Under the pieces are notes generated by a model. The model made no database searches, was not told the origin of the DNA, and was given only the letters and a program-made list of their open reading frames with translations. Positions 1,508-7,052 of a stretch of DNA of 13,555 nt are shown one piece after another (positions within the stretch are counted from its first letter, which is position 1; each line of letters begins with the position of its first letter). Source of the stretch: a virus (Duplodnaviria > Heunggongvirae > Uroviricota > Caudoviricetes); IMG/VR virus record IMGVR_UViG_3300026224_000027, positions 1 through 13,555 of that record. One strand, given 5' to 3'. The position numbers and the translations under genes are program-made.

Positions 1508-2658
1508 TCATGAAAGTTTGAAAGCGAACCGGTACGCGTCCATTTCTGGAACGTTTCGCCGCTGTCCTGCCAGCCTTTCAGTACAGATTTTTCAGCCCCA
1601 CCAGCCAGAATATGAGAAAAATCACTGCTGCTGTGTGTAAAAGCCGCATTAACAACCTGCGAGCGATTAATAAAACCGCTCACAGTGATACCACGATCAA
1701 CCAGTGATGCCTGGGCCATTTCAAAAAGACTCATCATCGCGTAAGGGTTGCCTCGTTCAGGCCGTTCATACCCAAGACGGGAATAAAGCCCCTGACGAAT
1801 TGCATCACCTGTTATGTTTCCGTTTCCAGCATAGATATGAGGCGGGGTATTTTTATTGGATGGCGTGGACTCGCGCCCCAGCTCGTTCAACAGCTTTTCA
1901 CGGGCCATTTCCGGTGTACATGATGCATCTTCCAGACACGCCATTTTGATCCCGTCGTAACGACTGCCGAACAGGCTAAACACTTCACTTATTCCATTGA
2001 TGCGCTTCTGTTCATTACCAGCAATGTTTGCCGCTCCCTGTGGCGGTGTAATCATTCCTTTAATGGTTTCCGGCATATGTAAAAAATCTCCTGTGCGTTT
2101 CGATTCAATTCGCGCCATTGCTCTGACGGATGGCAACAATTCATCAGCAAAACCGTGCTTAAGGCATTCTTTCCCATCCATCCAGGTTTCATCCTCCAGC
2201 ATGGCGGTAATTTCCTGTGCTGATTTGCCCGTTTTTCTGGCATAAGCAGGGATTAACACGGTTTCCACCTTATCCAGCAAATCAGCATAATCACGCATAT
2301 CGCCAGCATTTCCGCCAGAGATCCCCCACGGTTTATGGATCATCATCATGGCGTTCTCCGGCATCACTACACGATCGCCAGCCATTGCGACCACCGAAGC
2401 CATTGAAGCCGCAACACCATCGATATAAACCGTAATGTCTGCCGGATGATTCCGTAGCAGGTTATAGATGGCGATGCCTTCAAACACATCACCACCTGGT
2501 GAATGGATCCTCAGATTGATATGTGAAACATCGCCAAGGGCTTTCAGGTCTTCCGCGAACTGCTTTGCAGTAACACCGAAGCCGCCAATCTCCTCATAGA
2601 TAGATATATCCGCCGCTCCGCGAACATCCGCCGCCTTAATGGTGTACCAGCGATTCAT
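1345..2658 (-). CDS. ClpP-family (S14) prohead protease domain fused to N-terminal part of major capsid protein; apparent frameshift near its 3' end
   Basis: N-terminal about 185 aa carry ClpP-like motifs: GVAASMAS (Ser), MIHKP (His), SPGGDV. The remainder is capsid-like. The last about 50 aa of this frame look non-native where the second frame (746..1507) is open. Confidence 0.65.
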   Translation of the reverse strand: MNRWYTIKAADVRGAADISIYEEIGGFGVTAKQFAEDLKALGDVSHINLRIHSPGGDVFEGIAIYNLLRNHPADITVYIDGVAASMASVVAMAGDRVVMPENAMMMIHKPWGISGGNAGDMRDYADLLDKVETVLIPAYARKTGKSAQEITAMLEDETWMDGKECLKHGFADELLPSVRAMARIESKRTGDFLHMPETIKGMITPPQGAANIAGNEQKRINGISEVFSLFGSRYDGIKMACLEDASCTPEMAREKLLNELGRESTPSNKNTPPHIYAGNGNITGDAIRQGLYSRLGYERPERGNPYAMMSLFEMAQASLVDRGITVSGFINRSQVVNAAFTHSSSDFSHILAGGAEKSVLKGWQDSGETFQKWTRTGSLSNFHEAKRVGLNVFQSWIKYRKVRNINTSPPAIKVYLLRWPRTGIYFPLPVRPLSTMT

Positions 2659-2864
2659 TGTTCCCCCACCGATGCAAAACCATTCTGATTAAGCCAGGTG
2701 TTTACGGCATGTCTGACAATCTGCGCCACACCTGGTAATGGTTGGTCAGGATGATGATTTATATGGTCGATCCTGTACTGCTTAAGGCGCATAACGGTCT
2801 GCGCATCCAGATGAACGGAACCACCTCTGGTATCACCTGTGTTCAGGTCATTAATACAACTCAC
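2655..2864 (-). CDS. Hypothetical small protein (69 aa), first gene of capsid operon
   Basis: GTG start preceded by GAGGAAG about 5 nt upstream; its TGA stop overlaps the ATG of the protease gene (ATGA), suggesting translational coupling. Confidence 0.35.
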   Translation of the reverse strand: MSCINDLNTGDTRGGSVHLDAQTVMRLKQYRIDHINHHPDQPLPGVAQIVRHAVNTWLNQNGFASVGEQ

Positions 2865-2965
2865 AGCAACTTCCTCTGACTGACTAAACTATGCACATTA
2901 TTGATCGATAAAAGTGGTAAATAAATATATTTCTATCATAAAAACAGATTAATTAGATTCAGACA

Positions 2966-2989
2966 CAAAAAAGCCGGATTTCTCCGGCT
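2966..2989 (-). terminator. Putative intrinsic terminator downstream of replication operon/ori
   Basis: Minus-strand hairpin AGCCGGA-(GAAA)-TCCGGCT followed by TTTTT (plus A-run 2967-2971). Confidence 0.4.
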
Positions 2990-3361: not shown

Positions 3362-5194
3362 TTAATTTTTGCTATCGTCATTAGTGACCGATACACATGA
3401 TGGCATCCAGTCTTCTGATTCCTCCGTCAGTGTCACGTTTGAACGCAAACCGTGTTTCGTTTTCCGTTTCATATACTCCCTGCCATATTCCGCCATTGCC
3501 CCCGGCATATCTTTACCGAAGCGCGTCAGTGTTACAGGTTTACCAAACCCATGTGCCCTCATATAAGCCAGATAGGCATGATAGAGATACCTGCGTGGGC
3601 TGAATGGCACAATTTCAGCATTACCCACTAACAGGCCATCACACATTACCGACGCCATGAGATAGCCGCAGAAGTCCACCAGCGAATCCCCCTCTCGCTT
3701 TATCGCCAGTGCTTCTTCAGATTTCTGCTGCTCATATAACAGGCGTCTGGCTTCGTCCTGGTCAGCAAACCGTGTAAGCAGATGGCGAATCACTACCGCC
3801 AGCTCACCTTCTATTTTTTCCGCCAGCATTGGATCACGTTCGTTCTCCGGTACAACTTCCGAAAAATTGAATATCACCCGACGACGTGAGATCCCCCCGC
3901 TGCGGTCACTGAATGACATGGCGTTATTGTTAACCGCCAGCACTACTGCCGGAATACGCGTTGAGTAGGGGGCTTTGTGTTTCGGGTCAATTGCCACCTT
4001 GTCACCGCCTGTAATAGCCTTAATCCCTGCCCCATCACCAGCGTAGCGGGTCATATCCGGCATGATAATCAGCGAAAAGCCAACCACTAACGCGCGTTCC
4101 CTTGCATCTTCCAGCGCCTTCATGCTTGCCGATACTGTGTTGGCCTTACCCGCCAGCATGGTGCAAATCTCCGCCATCACGCTTTTACCACTTCCCCCTG
4201 GACCTGTTACCTCAATGAATAACTGCCAGTCGTACCGGTTCGCCAGCACCATGAATAATGCAGCCAGTACGCGATCCGCCTTGCGGTCATTCTCAGCCAC
4301 CGAACGGCGTAACCACTTCCAGAAATTCGGCGCATGTGTTGCCAGCGTTTCCCCCTCTGCTGGTGGGCTGAAAGGTAATTCACTGGCAATTAACAACCAG
4401 TCGTTTTTGTTATGCTCCCGAAAATTACCTGTTCTGGTATCAAATACCCCGTTACTGAATCCAATCAGGTTACGGGCTGTATTCCCCATTACAGGCAAAC
4501 TTAACTTCATGGTATCGACCGCCGATTTAATGGCGTTCTGCGAATAGCTGATCTCCGCATCAATGAAAATCTGTGCCATAGCTCGCTGTAATTCTTTATC
4601 CTGTACTGGCTCCCATACAACGCCGTTGTAATGGTGAACAGTGTCAGAGTCAGCATGAATCGCCAGTTCACCGCCATAATGTGCCAGGAGAACTTCGCCG
4701 CGTTGACTTGCTCCCATCTGGTTAAGCGCCAGTGATGAAGCGTTATCGTCTTTTACCCGCTCTTTTTTCTTTACAGGCAGTTCAACTACCTTTTTCTTTT
4801 CCGCCAGCTCTGCCCGTTCACGTTCCAGATATTCGTGCCAGTTCTCCCGTTTCTGGCTGTGCATTCCTTCAGGATAATAATCAGCATCCCTGACACCTGC
4901 CGCTGCCAGTTTCTGCCCGATGGTATTAACAAGCACCGGACGCAATAACCCCGCCTGATAGAGACGCACGCGATAGCGTCCGTCCGGTACGATTTGCAGG
5001 TTGTCCAGTTCGGCAAGTTGTTGCTCTCCAAGCCAGACAGGTGGCACGTTATCGCCTGCCAGTCGCCCGTCCTGTTCCTGCCACTGCTTCGCATGTGCCC
5101 ACGCATCACTACCCGCAAAAATGATGACTTCCGTCATTTTGTCACGCGGCTGGTGTTTTAAATTTGGCGCTTTTTTCATTTCTGCTCTCTCCAC
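3362..5194 (-). CDS. Replication initiator: phage/plasmid primase-helicase, P4/D5 family (Walker A NTPase)
   Basis: 610 aa; Walker A motif GPGGSGKS and a downstream hydrophobic beta-strand (LVVGFSLIIMPD) typical of the P4-alpha C-terminal NTPase family. Alternative start at the ATG 5179 forms an ATGA overlap with the upstream 99-aa gene. Confidence 0.7.
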   Translation of the reverse strand: MERAEMKKAPNLKHQPRDKMTEVIIFAGSDAWAHAKQWQEQDGRLAGDNVPPVWLGEQQLAELDNLQIVPDGRYRVRLYQAGLLRPVLVNTIGQKLAAAGVRDADYYPEGMHSQKRENWHEYLERERAELAEKKKVVELPVKKKERVKDDNASSLALNQMGASQRGEVLLAHYGGELAIHADSDTVHHYNGVVWEPVQDKELQRAMAQIFIDAEISYSQNAIKSAVDTMKLSLPVMGNTARNLIGFSNGVFDTRTGNFREHNKNDWLLIASELPFSPPAEGETLATHAPNFWKWLRRSVAENDRKADRVLAALFMVLANRYDWQLFIEVTGPGGSGKSVMAEICTMLAGKANTVSASMKALEDARERALVVGFSLIIMPDMTRYAGDGAGIKAITGGDKVAIDPKHKAPYSTRIPAVVLAVNNNAMSFSDRSGGISRRRVIFNFSEVVPENERDPMLAEKIEGELAVVIRHLLTRFADQDEARRLLYEQQKSEEALAIKREGDSLVDFCGYLMASVMCDGLLVGNAEIVPFSPRRYLYHAYLAYMRAHGFGKPVTLTRFGKDMPGAMAEYGREYMKRKTKHGLRSNVTLTEESEDWMPSCVSVTNDDSKN

Positions 5195-5481: not shown

Positions 5482-5802
5482 TTATCCCCGATTTGAATCA
5501 GTATTCGCTTTCTTTATGGCATTTAATGCATCTGCGGCATTTTCAATGGTGCACCGTAACGAAATATCAAACTGCCCAAGCATTGCCAGTAACAAACCGA
5601 TATTACCCATATCAATGCGCATAGCCTTTTCGTCATAGTCCTCATTTTCTGACGCATGCCACATCAGGCTACCAATTGACGCAATACCCATTGATATATT
5701 GTCAGTAGCCCCATCCGCAGCGGAATAAACCTTTTTAGCAATATCATGCTCACAGTTAAAATGCGGATTAATCAGGTACTGGTAATTTGACATATCAGGC
5801 AT
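5482..5802 (-). CDS. Hypothetical protein (106 aa)
   Basis: Start ATG (5802) lies 2 nt before the TGA of the upstream 67-aa gene; 6-nt gap to the next gene. No recognisable motif. Confidence 0.45.
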   Translation of the reverse strand: MPDMSNYQYLINPHFNCEHDIAKKVYSAADGATDNISMGIASIGSLMWHASENEDYDEKAMRIDMGNIGLLLAMLGQFDISLRCTIENAADALNAIKKANTDSNRG

Positions 5803-5998
5803 GGCACACCCCCTGACGAATACGGGCGGCGAATATCATCACGCAGCCAGCCGGGGATTGCTGGCGTGCTTCCTGTTCGCTGGTGGCCACGATGTGAATC
5901 ACGCGCGGTTGTGCCGTGCTCAGGGCGATAAAACGCCAGATGAATTTATTCAGGTTGTGCGAGTCCCGCCCTTGCGGGTGTGTGGTATGATTTAACAT
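5795..5998 (-). CDS. Hypothetical small protein (67 aa), first gene of leftward operon
   Basis: Internal Met of the 306-aa track ORF (MLNHTTHPQ...), with GAGGT about 6 nt upstream. The longer ORF upstream of this Met runs through promoter, operator and terminator elements and is judged spurious. Confidence 0.4.
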   Translation of the reverse strand: MLNHTTHPQGRDSHNLNKFIWRFIALSTAQPRVIHIVATSEQEARQQSPAGCVMIFAARIRQGVCHA

Positions 5999-6094
5999 AG
6001 CTACCTCGATACTTCTGCTATCGTTGGTGGTTAGAAGCCCGGTTAGTGTTAGCGCACTGCCGGGTTTCGTCGTTTCTGCACCTTGCATCAACAA

Positions 6095-6170
6095 GGTGTT
6101 AAACACCAATTTAAGCCTAGGTGTTAAACACGTCAAGTGTTGAACACTTATTTTTTTTCCTGCATACTGC
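6095..6170. promoter_or_regulatory. Divergent promoter region with three 13-bp palindromic operators
   Basis: Operators GGTGTT-A-AACACC (6095-6107), GGTGTT-A-AACAC (6120-6131), AGTGTT-G-AACACT (6136-6148). Rightward promoter: -35 TTGAAC (6141-6146), 17-bp spacer, -10 CATACT (6164-6169). Leftward promoter on minus strand: -35 TTGACG (6136..6131), 17-bp spacer, -10 TAAATT (6113..6108). Confidence 0.45.
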
Positions 6171-6197
6171 ATTTGTTTTTTGTAAGGAGTACACAAC

Positions 6198-6377
6198 ATG
6201 GCGACAAAAGCAGTAAACGCAAAATCACAAACAGTTGCGGCAAGGGTTCCGCATGAAGTTATGAACAATGTTGAGGCGGTAAAAATGCCTGGTGAAAGTA
6301 CAGGGCAGTTTGTAACAGCAGCATTAAAGCGAGAAGTTGAATACCGCCAGCGTCGCAAGGCCAAAGAGCAGGAGTAA
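6198..6377 (+). CDS. Small ribbon-helix-helix-like DNA-binding protein (59 aa), putative island regulator; absent from ORF track
   Basis: AAGGAG 8 nt upstream of the ATG. Sequence MATKAVNAKSQTVAARVPHEVMNNVEAVKMPGESTGQFVTAALKREVEYRQRRKAKEQE shows a strand-helix-turn-helix pattern reminiscent of Arc/CopG RHH proteins. Sits directly beside the operator cluster. Confidence 0.45.
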   Translation: MATKAVNAKSQTVAARVPHEVMNNVEAVKMPGESTGQFVTAALKREVEYRQRRKAKEQE

Positions 6378-6434
6378 CCATCACCAGCGCCGTGGTGCGG
6401 TGAACTGTGGCGCACAGGGTTACAGGTATCTACG

Positions 6435-6614
6435 ATGACTGACAAATCATTAAAGAAATTATCCTCATCCAAGAAAAAACAACGCAAAAATGCGGTAAAC
6501 GAACATGAACCGGAGAGATTCGCACCATGTGCGTTTATCCTTGAGAAGTACCTTAAAGAGTATTCTAGGAAAATACGCTCATTGCAGGCATGGCAGCGAA
6601 TCGAGCCAGACTGA
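6435..6614 (+). CDS. Hypothetical basic small protein (59 aa); absent from ORF track
   Basis: ATG-initiated ORF (MTDKSLKKLSSSKKKQRKNAVNEHEPERF...) downstream of the RHH gene and followed by a strong terminator; RBS weak. Confidence 0.3.
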   Translation: MTDKSLKKLSSSKKKQRKNAVNEHEPERFAPCAFILEKYLKEYSRKIRSLQAWQRIEPD

Positions 6615-6678
6615 TAGCATTGCCCACTAGCCGACAACCTGGTATTCTGGATATGCTCAAGTTTAGTGTTATGCCACT

Positions 6679-6706
6679 GGCGACCGCCCCCGGTCGCCTT
6701 TGTTTT
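6679..6706 (+). terminator. Rho-independent terminator ending the rightward small-ORF transcript
   Basis: GGCGACCG-(CCCC)-CGGTCGCC 8-bp GC stem followed by TTTGTTTT; lies between convergent ORF 6435..6614 and alpA. Confidence 0.6.
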
Positions 6707-6724
6707 ATGTGTCATAGCTCCCCC

Positions 6725-6949
6725 CTAGGCTGCCTTACCTGAATTAACGCGGTCACGGCTTTGCACCCAGTCCATAACTTCGGAAAGCAACCAGCCTACA
6801 GAACGCCCCCCAAGATTACGGCGAGACGGAAAGCCCCCTTTCTTCTCCAGTTCGTAGCGTGTAGTACGGCTGACGCCTGTTAACTTACGACATTCATCCT
6901 CACGAATTACGCGATCTGTTAGTGATTGAAATTGTGTATTTTGATTCAT
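6725..6949 (-). CDS. alpA: AlpA-family transcriptional regulator (excisionase-like HTH)
   Basis: 74 aa; C-terminal segment LGGRSVGWLLSEVMDWVQSR resembles the AlpA conserved region (GxxSVGWxExEIxxWxxxR); positioned downstream of int in the same orientation, as in P4-like elements and Gram-negative PICIs. Confidence 0.75.
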   Translation of the reverse strand: MNQNTQFQSLTDRVIREDECRKLTGVSRTTRYELEKKGGFPSRRNLGGRSVGWLLSEVMDWVQSRDRVNSGKAA

Positions 6950-7052
6950 AAAAACACCCTCGAACGTAACCGAACGAGGGCATCTTATTTACCATAGCAG
7001 TTGGTGCAATATTGGAAAAATAAACTTTATTCTAATTTATCGTTCTCCATGA

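What the first reader, a model, noticed from the sequence alone, without database searches (positions are those of the whole stretch)
6198..6614. Two short ORFs missed by the ORF track (both 59 aa), the first RHH-like
Both are just under the track's apparent 60-aa cutoff. The first has a strong AAGGAG RBS and an Arc/CopG-like strand-helix-helix pattern (TVAARVPHEV ... GQFVTAALKREV), and sits next to the operator cluster. The second is very basic at its N-terminus. A strong terminator follows, shielding convergent alpA.
Basis: partly seen in the sequence, partly recalled or inferred. Interest (0 to 1): 0.5.

Follow-up and report, generated by a model that had tools for sequence, protein, structure and literature searches.

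The report
Ribbon-helix-helix repressor of phage satellite
Both 59-codon genes are real: the first encodes a small ribbon-helix-helix DNA-binding protein whose DNA-reading residues change in step with three nearby operator sites, so it is the likely repressor of this E. coli phage satellite's replication genes, and both genes lie antisense inside a longer reading frame that is itself kept open.

Summary
ORF1 (6198-6377) and ORF2 (6435-6614) are intact 59-codon genes followed by a one-way terminator. Both are under purifying selection in their own frame across more than 100 related loci.

The new result is comparative. About 17 operator classes of the form GTG-N5-CAC each pair with a distinct ORF1 beta-strand. 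The association peaks at alternate residues 12 and 14. It is independent of the AlpA, integrase, primase and ORF2 alleles.

The three operators cover the back-to-back promoters of ORF1 and of the icd-primase operon. ORF1 is therefore most likely the satellite's autoregulated repressor, a role the literature I could search leaves unfilled for Gram-negative PICIs.

ORF2 is a real, basic, Escherichia-restricted accessory protein of unknown role.

Both genes lie antisense inside a 306-codon minus-strand frame that runs from alpA into icd, like P4 eta/kil. That frame is stop-free in 52 of 52 unique E. coli loci.

A conserved SymR-like antisense RNA lies over the icd start.

The parts
6198..6377 (+). 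ORF1, 59 aa. YlcI/YnfO-family ribbon-helix-helix protein and proposed operator-binding repressor. S10 and R16 are invariant; residues 12 and 14 determine specificity.
6184..6189 (+). Shine-Dalgarno AAGGAG of ORF1, 8 nt before the ATG
6140..6168 (+). Candidate ORF1 promoter (P_right): -35 TTGAAC at 6140-6145, 17-nt spacer, -10 CATACT at 6163-6168. The -10 is conserved as TATACT in relatives.
   Evidence: sequence, (consensus match only; no transcription start data)
6096..6106 (.). Operator O1, GTGTTAAACAC, lying over the predicted start site of the leftward promoter
6121..6131 (.). Operator O2, GTGTTAAACAC, inside the spacer and abutting the -35 of the leftward promoter
6137..6147 (.). Operator O3', GTGTTGAACAC, overlapping the -35 of the ORF1 promoter. 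In most relatives the third operator instead sits directly after the -10.
6108..6136 (-). Candidate leftward promoter (P_left, analogue of P4 P_LE): -35 TTGACG at 6136-6131, 17-nt spacer, -10 TAAATT at 6113-6108. It would drive icd-like, hyp106, DUF4222 and primase.
6435..6614 (+). ORF2, 59 aa. Basic N-terminus and a conserved ERFxPCxFxLExFLKE helix. Real but accessory gene, restricted to Escherichia; function unknown.
6679..6708 (+). Intrinsic terminator of the ORF1-ORF2 unit. It works on the + strand only, because the minus strand has no U-tract.
5795..6715 (-). 306-codon eta-like frame. Its ATG is 9 nt after the alpA stop, behind GGGGGAG. It runs antisense through the terminator, ORF2, ORF1 and the operators, and ends in frame as the Icd/Kil-like protein.
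5795..5998 (-). Nested 67-aa Icd-like (Kil-like) gene with its own SD (GAGGT). It is the first gene of the leftward operon.
5999..6075 (+). SymR-like two-hairpin antisense RNA candidate over the icd SD and ATG. It ends in a terminator-like hairpin just before O1.
6725..6949 (-). alpA (Phage_AlpA family activator/excisionase homologue), convergent with ORF1-ORF2 and co-oriented with the eta-like frame

Best explanation
The window holds a capsid-forming PICI/P4-like phage satellite of E. coli, inserted beside rcnR.

ORF1 is a genuine 59-aa ribbon-helix-helix protein of the YlcI/YnfO family.

Inferred: as a dimer it inserts its N-terminal beta-ribbon into the major groove of three 11-bp operators of the form GTG-N5-CAC (O1 6096-6106, O2 6121-6131, O3' 6137-6147). 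The invariant S10 and R16 would contact the constant GTG/CAC flanks. Residues 12 and 14 would read the variable 5-bp core.

The operators cover the predicted start site and the spacer/-35 of the leftward promoter (icd-like, hyp106, DUF4222, primase) and the -35 of ORF1's own promoter. ORF1 therefore most likely represses the satellite's toxic and replication operon and autoregulates itself. It would be a protein 'immunity' repressor in the place where P4 uses its CI RNA.

ORF2 is co-transcribed with ORF1 and the unit ends at a + strand-only terminator. ORF2 is a real small basic protein but a dispensable accessory, absent outside Escherichia. Its role is unknown; a modulator or partner of the switch is a guess.

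Both genes are embedded antisense in a 306-codon frame that starts 9 nt after alpA and ends as Icd/Kil.

Inferred by analogy with P4 eta/kil: when the helper phage turns on alpA, transcription from the alpA promoter, coupled to translation of this open frame, reads through the region and bypasses repression of the internal promoter. On the way it collides with and silences ORF1-ORF2 transcription.

Shown here: coding status, fold, family, operator/beta-strand co-variation, promoter-operator geometry by consensus, and antisense frame conservation. Inferred: binding, the repressive direction, read-through and the switch.
For: Coding status:
- dN/dS is lowest in the annotated frames: ORF1 0.20 and ORF2 0.26-0.28.
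- ORF2 is intact at 57-66 aa in 80 of 81 loci, and its indels are multiples of three.

Family:
- NF041551 at E = 2e-16, 59.7 bits against a cutoff of 30.
- PGAP names the identical protein.
- Homologues occur across Escherichia, Salmonella, Klebsiella, Pectobacterium, Serratia, Proteus and Xenorhabdus.

Fold:
- AF2 pLDDT 84 with a strand-helix-helix layout.
- A G32-E-S34-T35 turn precedes helix 2.

Operator link:
- The same three-operator architecture is found in about 50 distinct loci.
- 17 operator core classes map almost one-to-one onto beta-strand pentapeptides.
- Adjusted mutual information with operator class peaks at residues 14 (0.72) and 12 (0.59). Every other column is at or below 0.37.
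- Identical AlpA occurs with three operator classes.
- The QTVAA/GTGTTAAACAC pair occurs with AlpA 30-100%, integrase 22-100%, primase 37-100%, and ORF2 51-100% identical or absent, including in Edwardsiella.
- In O157:H7 a non-homologous classical RHH occupies the same slot.

Geometry:
- Operators overlap the -35, spacer and start site of both consensus promoters.

Terminator:
- Conserved in 41 of 49 unique relatives, with different stems.

Antisense frame:
- No stops in 52 of 52 unique loci over about 580 nt, and 41 of 52 stay open through to icd. The other two minus frames average 13 and 17 stops.
- 67 of 69 ORF1 and 35 of 35 ORF2 versions are stop-free. Random synonymous codons give P = 0.28 and 0.19.

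P4 precedent:
- PMC10111431, section 20, summarises Forti et al. 1999.

Literature gap:
- PMC6092414 states that a global repressor in Gram-negative PICIs is unclear and that AlpA is an activator.
Against: - There is no experimental datum on binding, transcription starts or translation.
- ORF1 itself matches no Pfam RHH profile, and neither ORF1 nor its profile matches any PDB sequence.
- The operators and ORF1 are only about 100 bp apart, so linkage contributes to their co-variation. The argument rests on where the association peaks, not on its existence.
- One beta-strand pentapeptide (QQLNA) occurs with two different cores, and QKLQA and QSLKS each occur with two similar cores. Residues outside 11-15 must therefore also contribute.
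- An 11-bp site is large for one RHH dimer, and the stoichiometry is unknown.
- The promoters are consensus matches at a frequency no higher than in shuffled sequence.
- Repression rather than activation is inferred from position only.
- The antisense co-wobble frame also shows lowered dN/dS (0.30 and 0.42). This is expected from shared third positions, but it means the two strands' constraints cannot be fully separated.
Confidence: 0.65

Rival explanations
1. ORF1 and ORF2 are non-coding 'shadow' ORFs. The only real gene here would be the 306-codon minus-strand eta/Icd-like frame, and the + strand ORFs stay open merely because they share third codon positions with it.
For: - The minus frame is stop-free in 52 of 52 loci, beyond what the + strand proteins would allow by chance.
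- It starts 9 nt after the alpA stop, behind a G-rich SD.
- 1884 database proteins, many named Icd-like and 305-306 aa long, correspond to it.
- PGAP annotates the antisense strand as an Icd-like pseudogene in O157:H7.
- Antisense dN/dS is lowered, at 0.30 and 0.42.
Against: - The sense frames have the lowest dN/dS.
- ORF1 homologues exist outside the satellite context, where the antisense frame is closed (L004 and L005).
- ORF1 belongs to a curated family (NF041551) that also has lambdoid-prophage members.
- The model is a confident RHH fold.
- ORF1 has its own strong SD, a promoter-like site and a conserved terminator.
- Specificity co-variation falls at alternate beta-strand residues.
- The 306-aa protein has no Pfam domain.
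- Both strands being used is the better reading.
Confidence: 0.05
2. ORF1-ORF2 is a type II toxin-antitoxin pair. ORF1 would be an RHH antitoxin that autoregulates, and ORF2 a small toxin.
For: - The gene order is antitoxin-like RHH first, then a small basic protein.
- There is an operator at ORF1's own promoter.
- One source labels an ORF2 homologue 'RelE'.
- The ORF1 C-terminal tail RRQRRKAKEQE is constant among E. coli alleles.
Against: - ORF2 matches no toxin family in Pfam, NCBIfam or PADLOC, and no PDB fold.
- Its family has only 10 representatives among 1.84 billion.
- ORF2 is absent next to ORF1 in Xenorhabdus, Serratia, Pectobacterium, Proteus and others, while ORF1 and its operators persist there.
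- ORF1 and ORF2 alleles reassort freely: ORF1 100% with ORF2 51%, and ORF1 53% with ORF2 97%.
- At 59 aa, ORF2 is short for RelE or ParE.
- Two of the three operators sit on the divergent replication-operon promoter, not on ORF1's own promoter.
Confidence: 0.08
3. The GTG-N5-CAC boxes are AlpA (or another factor's) binding sites. ORF1 would have a different job, for example the unknown role that YlcI/YnfO plays in lambdoid prophages.
For: - AlpA is the established activator of Gram-negative PICI genes (PMC6092414).
- AlpA is a DNA-binding HTH protein encoded 600 bp away.
- The function of the YlcI/YnfO family is unknown.
Against: - Operator class is decoupled from the AlpA allele. Identical AlpA occurs with three operator classes, and one operator class occurs with AlpA alleles 30-100% identical.
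- Operator class tracks ORF1 residues 12 and 14.
- A different RHH replaces ORF1 at the same slot in O157:H7.
Confidence: 0.07
4. ORF1 binds the operators but acts as an activator or anti-terminator of the leftward operon, or only as an autoregulator with no control over replication genes.
For: The direction of regulation was not measured. Some RHH proteins activate. The leftward promoter is a weak consensus match (9 of 12).
Against: The operators lie within the spacer/-35 and over the predicted +1 of P_left, and over the -35 (or, in relatives, directly after the -10) of P_right. These are positions typical of steric repression, not of class I or class II activation.
Confidence: 0.12

Closest known systems
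Phage P22 immI region: the Arc and Mnt ribbon-helix-helix repressors with sar antisense RNA (recalled from established literature, not tested here)
   Different: There is no detectable sequence similarity. Here a single RHH has three 11-bp GTG-N5-CAC sites. The controlled operon encodes icd-like and primase genes, not an antirepressor. The RHH gene is embedded antisense in a translated frame.
Satellite phage P4 immunity region: vis, the eta/kil nested genes, internal promoter P_LE and CI RNA (Forti et al. 1999 as summarised in PMC10111431)
   Same: An AlpA/Vis homologue is followed by a long frame that spans an internal promoter and ends in frame as a small Kil/Icd-like toxic protein, upstream of a primase operon.
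   Different: P4 carries the C4/CI RNA and isrK-like elements, and I found no RHH gene on the opposite strand of its eta region. The window has no C4 or isrK match. Instead it has an RHH gene, ORF2 and operators on the opposite strand, plus a SymR-like antisense RNA.
YlcI / YnfO (NCBIfam NF041551; Pfam DUF3950) of E. coli K-12 cryptic prophages DLP12 and Qin
   Same: ORF1 scores 59.7 bits against a cutoff of 30. Allelic variants at the same locus pass the Pfam DUF3950 threshold.
   Different: These family members have no published function. As I recall, and did not check, their prophage context is near the terminase genes rather than a divergent promoter region. ORF1 itself does not reach DUF3950.
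Stl / Rpr master repressors of SaPIs and Gram-positive PICIs
   Same: The repressor gene is transcribed divergently from the satellite's replication operon and holds the element quiescent (description in PMC6092414). ORF1 occupies the equivalent logical position.
   Different: Stl and Rpr are larger proteins of a different fold class (recalled, not tested here) that are inactivated by helper-phage proteins. ORF1 is a 59-aa RHH, and Gram-negative PICI induction is known to go through AlpA. Whether a helper protein targets ORF1 is unknown.
RHH antitoxins of type II TA systems (TacA, ParD, VapB, MazE, CopA_SO)
   Same: They give the best structural matches. They share the small size, autoregulatory operator binding and a basic C-terminal tail.
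   Different: There is no recognisable cognate toxin. ORF2 is dispensable across genera and reassorts independently of ORF1.

Membership tests
Ribbon-helix-helix (Arc/MetJ/CopG) superfamily | A beta-strand, helix, helix topology of about 45 residues | tested here: met
Ribbon-helix-helix (Arc/MetJ/CopG) superfamily | Significant match to a curated RHH sequence profile or to a solved RHH sequence | tested here: not met
   No Pfam family reached its cutoff for ORF1. phmmer and a profile hmmsearch against PDB gave no RHH hit. Only sub-threshold hits to the HicB_lk_antitox RHH part and to PSK_trans_fac were seen, and only for allelic variants.
Ribbon-helix-helix (Arc/MetJ/CopG) superfamily | A G-x-S/T/N turn at the N-terminus of helix 2 (feature recalled from RHH reviews) | tested here: met
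   G32, E33 and S34 are invariant and T35 nearly so in 41 homologues.
Ribbon-helix-helix (Arc/MetJ/CopG) superfamily | Sequence-specific DNA reading by alternate residues of the N-terminal strand | tested here: met
   This is indirect evidence. Adjusted mutual information with operator class is 0.59 at residue 12 and 0.72 at residue 14. S10 and R16 are invariant, and all other columns are at or below 0.37. No binding assay was possible.
Ribbon-helix-helix (Arc/MetJ/CopG) superfamily | Obligate homodimer forming a two-stranded antiparallel ribbon | not testable with these tools
   Only monomer prediction was available.
YlcI/YnfO family (NCBIfam NF041551) | HMM score above the curated cutoff | tested here: met
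   59.7 bits against a cutoff of 30, E = 2.1e-16, residues 9-50. The identical protein WP_000201462.1 carries this name in RefSeq.
Pfam DUF3950 (PF13132) | Score above the gathering threshold | tested here: not met
   ORF1 gave no hit at E <= 1. The allelic variants from L050 and L033 score 28.3 and 29.9 against a cutoff of 25.
Type II toxin-antitoxin module | The downstream partner belongs to a toxin family or fold | tested here: not met
   ORF2 has no Pfam, NCBIfam or PADLOC match and no PDB fold match. Only 10 relatives were found among 1.84 billion representatives.
Type II toxin-antitoxin module | The two genes are co-inherited and co-evolve as a pair | tested here: not met
   ORF2 is absent beside ORF1 in most genera. 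The alleles reassort, for example L115 and L044.
P4-type eta/kil nested-gene leader | A long frame starts next to the AlpA/Vis gene, spans an internal promoter and ends in frame with a small Kil/Icd-like gene | tested here: met
   The frame is 5795-6715 on the minus strand. Its ATG is 9 nt after the alpA stop, and the Icd-like gene at 5795-5998 is nested in frame. It is open in 52 of 52 loci, and through to icd in 41 of 52. It is also open in most other genera.
P4-type eta/kil nested-gene leader | CI (C4) immunity RNA and its seqA/isrK-type targets in the leader | tested here: not met
   There is no C4, isrK or c4-a1b1 match in 5500-7100 at E <= 1. All three are found in P4 itself.
P4-type eta/kil nested-gene leader | Translation of the long frame prevents termination of read-through transcripts | not testable with these tools
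   Only the selective maintenance of the open frame could be shown.
Stl/Rpr-type PICI master repressor | Represses the replication operon and is relieved by a helper-phage factor | not testable with these tools
   Only the operator positions over P_left are available.
SymR antisense RNA (Rfam RF01809), for the neighbouring RNA | Score at or above the gathering threshold of 61 bits | tested here: not met
   33.6 bits in the window. L011 gave 45.6 bits and L017 gave 32.1 bits.

The most novel reading that the evidence does not exclude
The YlcI/YnfO-type RHH protein is the missing master (immunity) repressor of Gram-negative PICIs, cf-PICIs and related P4-like islands. It would come in at least 17 interchangeable operator specificities, with a readable two-residue code at positions 12 and 14. 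These would define satellite 'immunity groups'. It would work inside a dual-strand switch. In the quiescent state the RHH shuts the internal promoter of the icd-primase operon. On helper infection, AlpA-driven transcription, coupled to translation of the stop-free eta-like frame, runs antisense through the RHH-ORF2 unit. This would silence the repressor and bypass it at once. A SymR-like antisense RNA would add a third layer over the toxic icd gene.
Probability: 0.35. Interest if true: 0.75.

Novelty: new variant of a known kind. Interest (0 to 1): 0.55.

Why it matters
Phage satellites of enterobacteria move virulence, defence and resistance genes. [quoted passage not shown]

This analysis gives a concrete, testable candidate:
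- a 59-aa RHH protein;
- its three operators, mapped to the base;
- a predicted specificity code at residues 12 and 14 that could be swapped experimentally.

It assigns a first plausible function to the uncharacterised YlcI/YnfO (DUF3950) family.

It also shows a compact case of selected coding on both strands. A long frame is kept open, apparently for the act of translation, over two real antisense genes. This explains conflicting annotations: 67-aa versus 306-aa 'Icd-like' proteins, Icd-like 'pseudogenes', and an unannotated ORF2.

Tried and rejected
Searches that found nothing useful:
- Pfam on ORF1 and ORF2 gave only sub-threshold noise, Med10 and zf-DNA_Pol.
- phmmer and a profile search against PDB sequences gave DNA polymerase beta and designed-cage noise only.
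- tblastn of ORF1 against 50,697 phage records gave no match, so the family is not seen in deposited phage genomes at that sensitivity.
- PADLOC gave nothing for ORF1, ORF2, DUF6387 or the 306-aa frame.
- Foldseek of the ORF2 model against PDB gave nothing. The model is mostly one long helix and is uninformative.
- The exhaustive profile search for ORF2 found only a tiny family plus two repetitive false positives.
- A literature search for YlcI, YnfO or DUF3950 function found nothing relevant.
- Searches for an RHH repressor in PICI or P4-like satellites found nothing.
- The Forti 1999 paper could not be opened. It is cited through PMC10111431.

A method that failed:
- My first operator clustering used single linkage at up to 2 mismatches on 11-mers. 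It chained nearly all types into one class and was uninformative. I replaced it with consensus core classes.

Hypotheses rejected (see the rival explanations):
- Shadow ORFs.
- A toxin-antitoxin pair.
- AlpA as the operator binder.

Also considered: the window hairpin at 6040-6075 as a P4 CI-like RNA on the minus strand. I rejected this because the + strand folds much better and invariant G-U pairs exist only on the + strand.

Full report
**What the window is.** The 13.5-kb window is 100% identical to a chromosomal island of E. coli SCU-123. The island sits beside rcnR and rcnA. On the minus strand it encodes, in order:
- a tyrosine integrase (7904-9124);
- a DUF6387 protein (7053-7907);
- AlpA (6725-6949);
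- an Icd-like protein (5795-5998);
- a 106-aa hypothetical protein;
- a DUF4222 protein;
- a primase (3362-5194);
- further left, a prohead protease/major capsid fusion and a DUF1441 protein.

This gene content is that of a capsid-forming PICI/P4-like phage satellite, as described in 10.1101/2022.09.08.507074 and PMC6092414.

**The observation.**
- ORF1 is preceded by AAGGAG at 6184-6189.
- ORF2 has only a weak but conserved CAGG.
- ORF2 has 8 basic residues in its first 20.
- A G+C hairpin at 6679-6698 is followed by TTTGTTTTAT on the + strand only (-18 kcal/mol, z = -4.1).

**Are they genes?** I collected 35 loci from reference genomes of other Enterobacterales with an ORF1 profile. I collected 80 viral-contig loci with an ORF2 profile.
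- ORF1 is intact in 69 unique nucleotide versions. ORF2 is intact at 57-66 aa in 80 of 81 loci, with indels only in multiples of three.
- Median pairwise dN/dS is 0.20 for ORF1 and 0.26-0.28 for ORF2 in their own frames.
- It is 0.8-2.4 in four other frames.
- It is 0.30 and 0.42 in the antisense frame that shares third positions.
- A + strand terminator-like hairpin follows ORF2 in 41 of 49 unique relatives, built from at least four unrelated stem sequences.

ORF1 is not new as a gene. PGAP annotates the identical protein as 'YlcI/YnfO family protein', and it scores 59.7 bits against NF041551, whose cutoff is 30. ORF2 is unannotated in that record. It matches phrog_21027 and 29 database clusters, all from Escherichia. 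An exhaustive profile search of 1.84 billion representatives found only 10 relatives.

**Is ORF1 RHH-like?** No Pfam RHH profile and no PDB sequence matches it. The fold evidence is nevertheless consistent.
- The AlphaFold model (pLDDT 84) has an extended segment at 12-17, a helix at 19-28, a turn containing the invariant G32-E-S34, and a helix at 35-58.
- Allelic variants at the same locus pass Pfam DUF3950.
- In an O157:H7 island the slot is filled by a different, classical-looking RHH ORF, PPYQMRLPEDFRAQLEEAAK....

**The link to the operators.** This is the main new result. Upstream of ORF1 homologues the layout is constant:
- O1, an 11-mer at about -102;
- O2, a second copy at about -77, followed by GTCAA (the TTGAC -35 of a leftward promoter);
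- a TATACT -10;
- O3, a third copy directly after the -10. In the window type the third copy instead lies over the -35.

The 11-mers have constant GTG...CAC flanks and a variable 5-bp core. All three copies within a locus change together. Seventeen core classes map almost one-to-one onto the ORF1 pentapeptide at residues 11-15. Examples:

| ORF1 residues 11-15 | Operator |
|---|---|
| QTVAA | GTGTTAAACAC |
| KKLEA | GTGTCAGCCAC |
| KRFDV | GTGTCCGACAC |
| QLTTV | GTGAAACACAC |

Column by column, the adjusted mutual information with operator class is 0.72 at residue 14 and 0.59 at residue 12. It is at most 0.37 elsewhere, and S10 and R16 are invariant. Alternate residues of one strand are exactly how RHH proteins read DNA; this is established knowledge for Arc, MetJ and CopG, not something I tested here.

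Linkage alone would not produce that pattern. The pairing is also independent of everything else in the island:
- Identical AlpA occurs with three operator classes.
- The QTVAA/GTGTTAAACAC pair occurs with AlpA 30-100% identical, integrase 22-100%, primase 37-100%, and ORF2 51-100% or absent. This includes an Edwardsiella genome.

There are exceptions. QQLNA occurs with two cores, and two other pentapeptides occur with two similar cores.

**Likely mechanism.** The window has two consensus promoters, back to back:

| Promoter | -35 | -10 | Operators covering it |
|---|---|---|---|
| P_left (minus strand) | TTGACG, 6136-6131 | TAAATT, 6113-6108 | O2 (6121-6131) in its spacer; O1 (6096-6106) over the predicted start |
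| P_right (+ strand) | TTGAAC, 6140-6145 | CATACT, 6163-6168 | O3' (6137-6147) over the -35 |

These positions imply steric repression of both the icd-primase operon and ORF1's own promoter. Binding and direction are inferred, not shown. The promoters are consensus matches only.

The minus strand carries a 306-codon ORF (5795-6715).
- Its ATG lies 9 nt after the alpA stop, behind GGGGGAG.
- It runs antisense through the terminator, ORF2, ORF1 and the operator region.
- It ends in frame as the 67-aa Icd-like protein.

The frame is conserved as open:
- In 52 of 52 unique E. coli loci it has no stop from the ORF1 start to 100 nt past ORF2. In 41 of 52 it has none through the next 200 nt to icd.
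- The other two minus frames average 13 and 17 stops over the same span.
- ORF1 and ORF2 are always in the same + frame.
- The frame is also open in most other genera.
- With random synonymous codons, the chance that the antisense frame stays open is 0.28 for ORF1 and 0.19 for ORF2. Yet 67 of 69 ORF1 versions and 35 of 35 ORF2 versions are open.
- The two exceptions are the only ORF1 homologues found outside a satellite context.

Many records annotate the long form as an 'Icd-like protein'; 1884 homologues were found. The arrangement matches the eta/kil nested genes of P4. [quoted passage not shown] Its translation protects late read-through transcripts from termination (Forti et al. 1999 as summarised in PMC10111431).

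P4 itself has the C4/CI RNA and isrK-like elements. The window has none of these. This lineage seems to have a protein repressor where P4 has RNA immunity.

I infer that AlpA-driven, translation-coupled read-through both bypasses the repressed internal promoter and collides with ORF1-ORF2 transcription.

**ORF2.** It is real but accessory.
- It is absent beside ORF1 in Xenorhabdus, Serratia, Pectobacterium, Proteus and others.
- It reassorts independently of ORF1.
- It matches no toxin or defence family and no PDB fold.

This argues against a toxin-antitoxin pair. Its function remains unknown.

**Comparison and novelty.** The closest analogues in logic are the P22 Arc/Mnt region, the P4 eta/kil/CI region, and the Stl/Rpr repressors of Gram-positive PICIs. 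The closest in sequence are the uncharacterised YlcI/YnfO proteins.
- The gene is already annotated and an RHH repressor is a familiar device, so the bare finding is modest.
- I did not find three things described in the literature I could search: the operator code, the assignment of a function to this family, and the dual-strand architecture.
- They bear on the stated uncertainty about a repressor in Gram-negative PICIs.
- I could not search subscription-only papers, so prior description cannot be excluded.

Noticed in passing
window 5795-6715 (minus strand): A 306-codon frame starts 9 nt after the alpA stop and ends as the Icd-like protein. It runs antisense through ORF2, ORF1 and the operators. 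It is kept stop-free in 52 of 52 unique E. coli loci, beyond what the + strand proteins would allow by chance. This is a P4 eta/kil-like nested-gene arrangement.
   Followed up: yes
window 5999-6075 (+ strand): A two-hairpin RNA candidate lies antisense to the SD and ATG of the icd-like gene. It gives a sub-threshold SymR hit (33.6 bits; 45.6 and 32.1 bits at the same relative position in the Serratia and Xenorhabdus loci). The + strand folds at -35.8 kcal/mol (z = -5.2) against -20.5 on the minus strand. Of 25 consensus pairs, 14 show compensatory changes across 17 loci, and the invariant G-U pairs are possible only on the + strand. A possible promoter, TGGTATGAT, lies near 5983-5991. It looks like a type I antitoxin-style control of a toxic gene.
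   Followed up: partly
L117 4707-5111 (E. coli O157:H7 strain 2149): The ORF1 slot holds a different, classical-looking RHH ORF (57 aa, PPYQMRLPEDFRAQLEEAAK...). It is followed by an ORF2 homologue, and both again lie inside a 314-codon minus-strand frame. PGAP annotates the antisense strand there as an Icd-like pseudogene and calls neither small ORF.
   Followed up: partly
L054, L057, L070, L078 and others (about 2638-2943): Many E. coli islands carry a 101-aa ORF1 allele. It has a 42-aa insertion (AEGSGENPLVSSLDAL...EEIGQLVTVAREEL) between helix 2 and the conserved RRKAKEQE tail. The extra domain was not examined.
   Followed up: no
L004 4001-4180 and L005 344-523: ORF1 homologues (65% and 61% identical) lie in a different genomic context, with no alpA, icd or GTG-N5-CAC boxes nearby. 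These are the only versions whose antisense frame contains stops, so they are a useful natural control.
   Followed up: partly
window 5795-5998 versus 5795-6715; RefSeq records: Annotation is inconsistent across genomes. The same locus is called as a 67-aa Icd-like protein plus YlcI/YnfO, or as a 305-306-aa 'Icd-like protein', or as an Icd-like pseudogene. ORF2 is called in some records and not in others.
   Followed up: partly
window 7053-7907 (minus strand) and about 2260-2970 (+ strand): A DUF6387 gene sits between the integrase and alpA. A HEPN-domain gene, annotated in the identical SCU-123 record, sits between the primase and the capsid genes. Both look like cargo and may be defence-related. 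DUF6387 had no PADLOC match.
   Followed up: no
L003 6853-6921 (minus strand): Rfam int-alpA RNA (RF02996) hit at 39.4 bits, above its gathering score of 35.8, between the integrase and alpA of a Pectobacterium island. The equivalent region of the window (7000-7900) was not scanned.
   Followed up: no
L039 about 2700-2760: A one-base difference in the T-run between O3' and the -10 (7 T instead of 8) shifts the minus-strand frame. In that island the long frame no longer continues into icd. About 11 of 52 loci likewise have 1-8 stops in this upstream segment.
   Followed up: no
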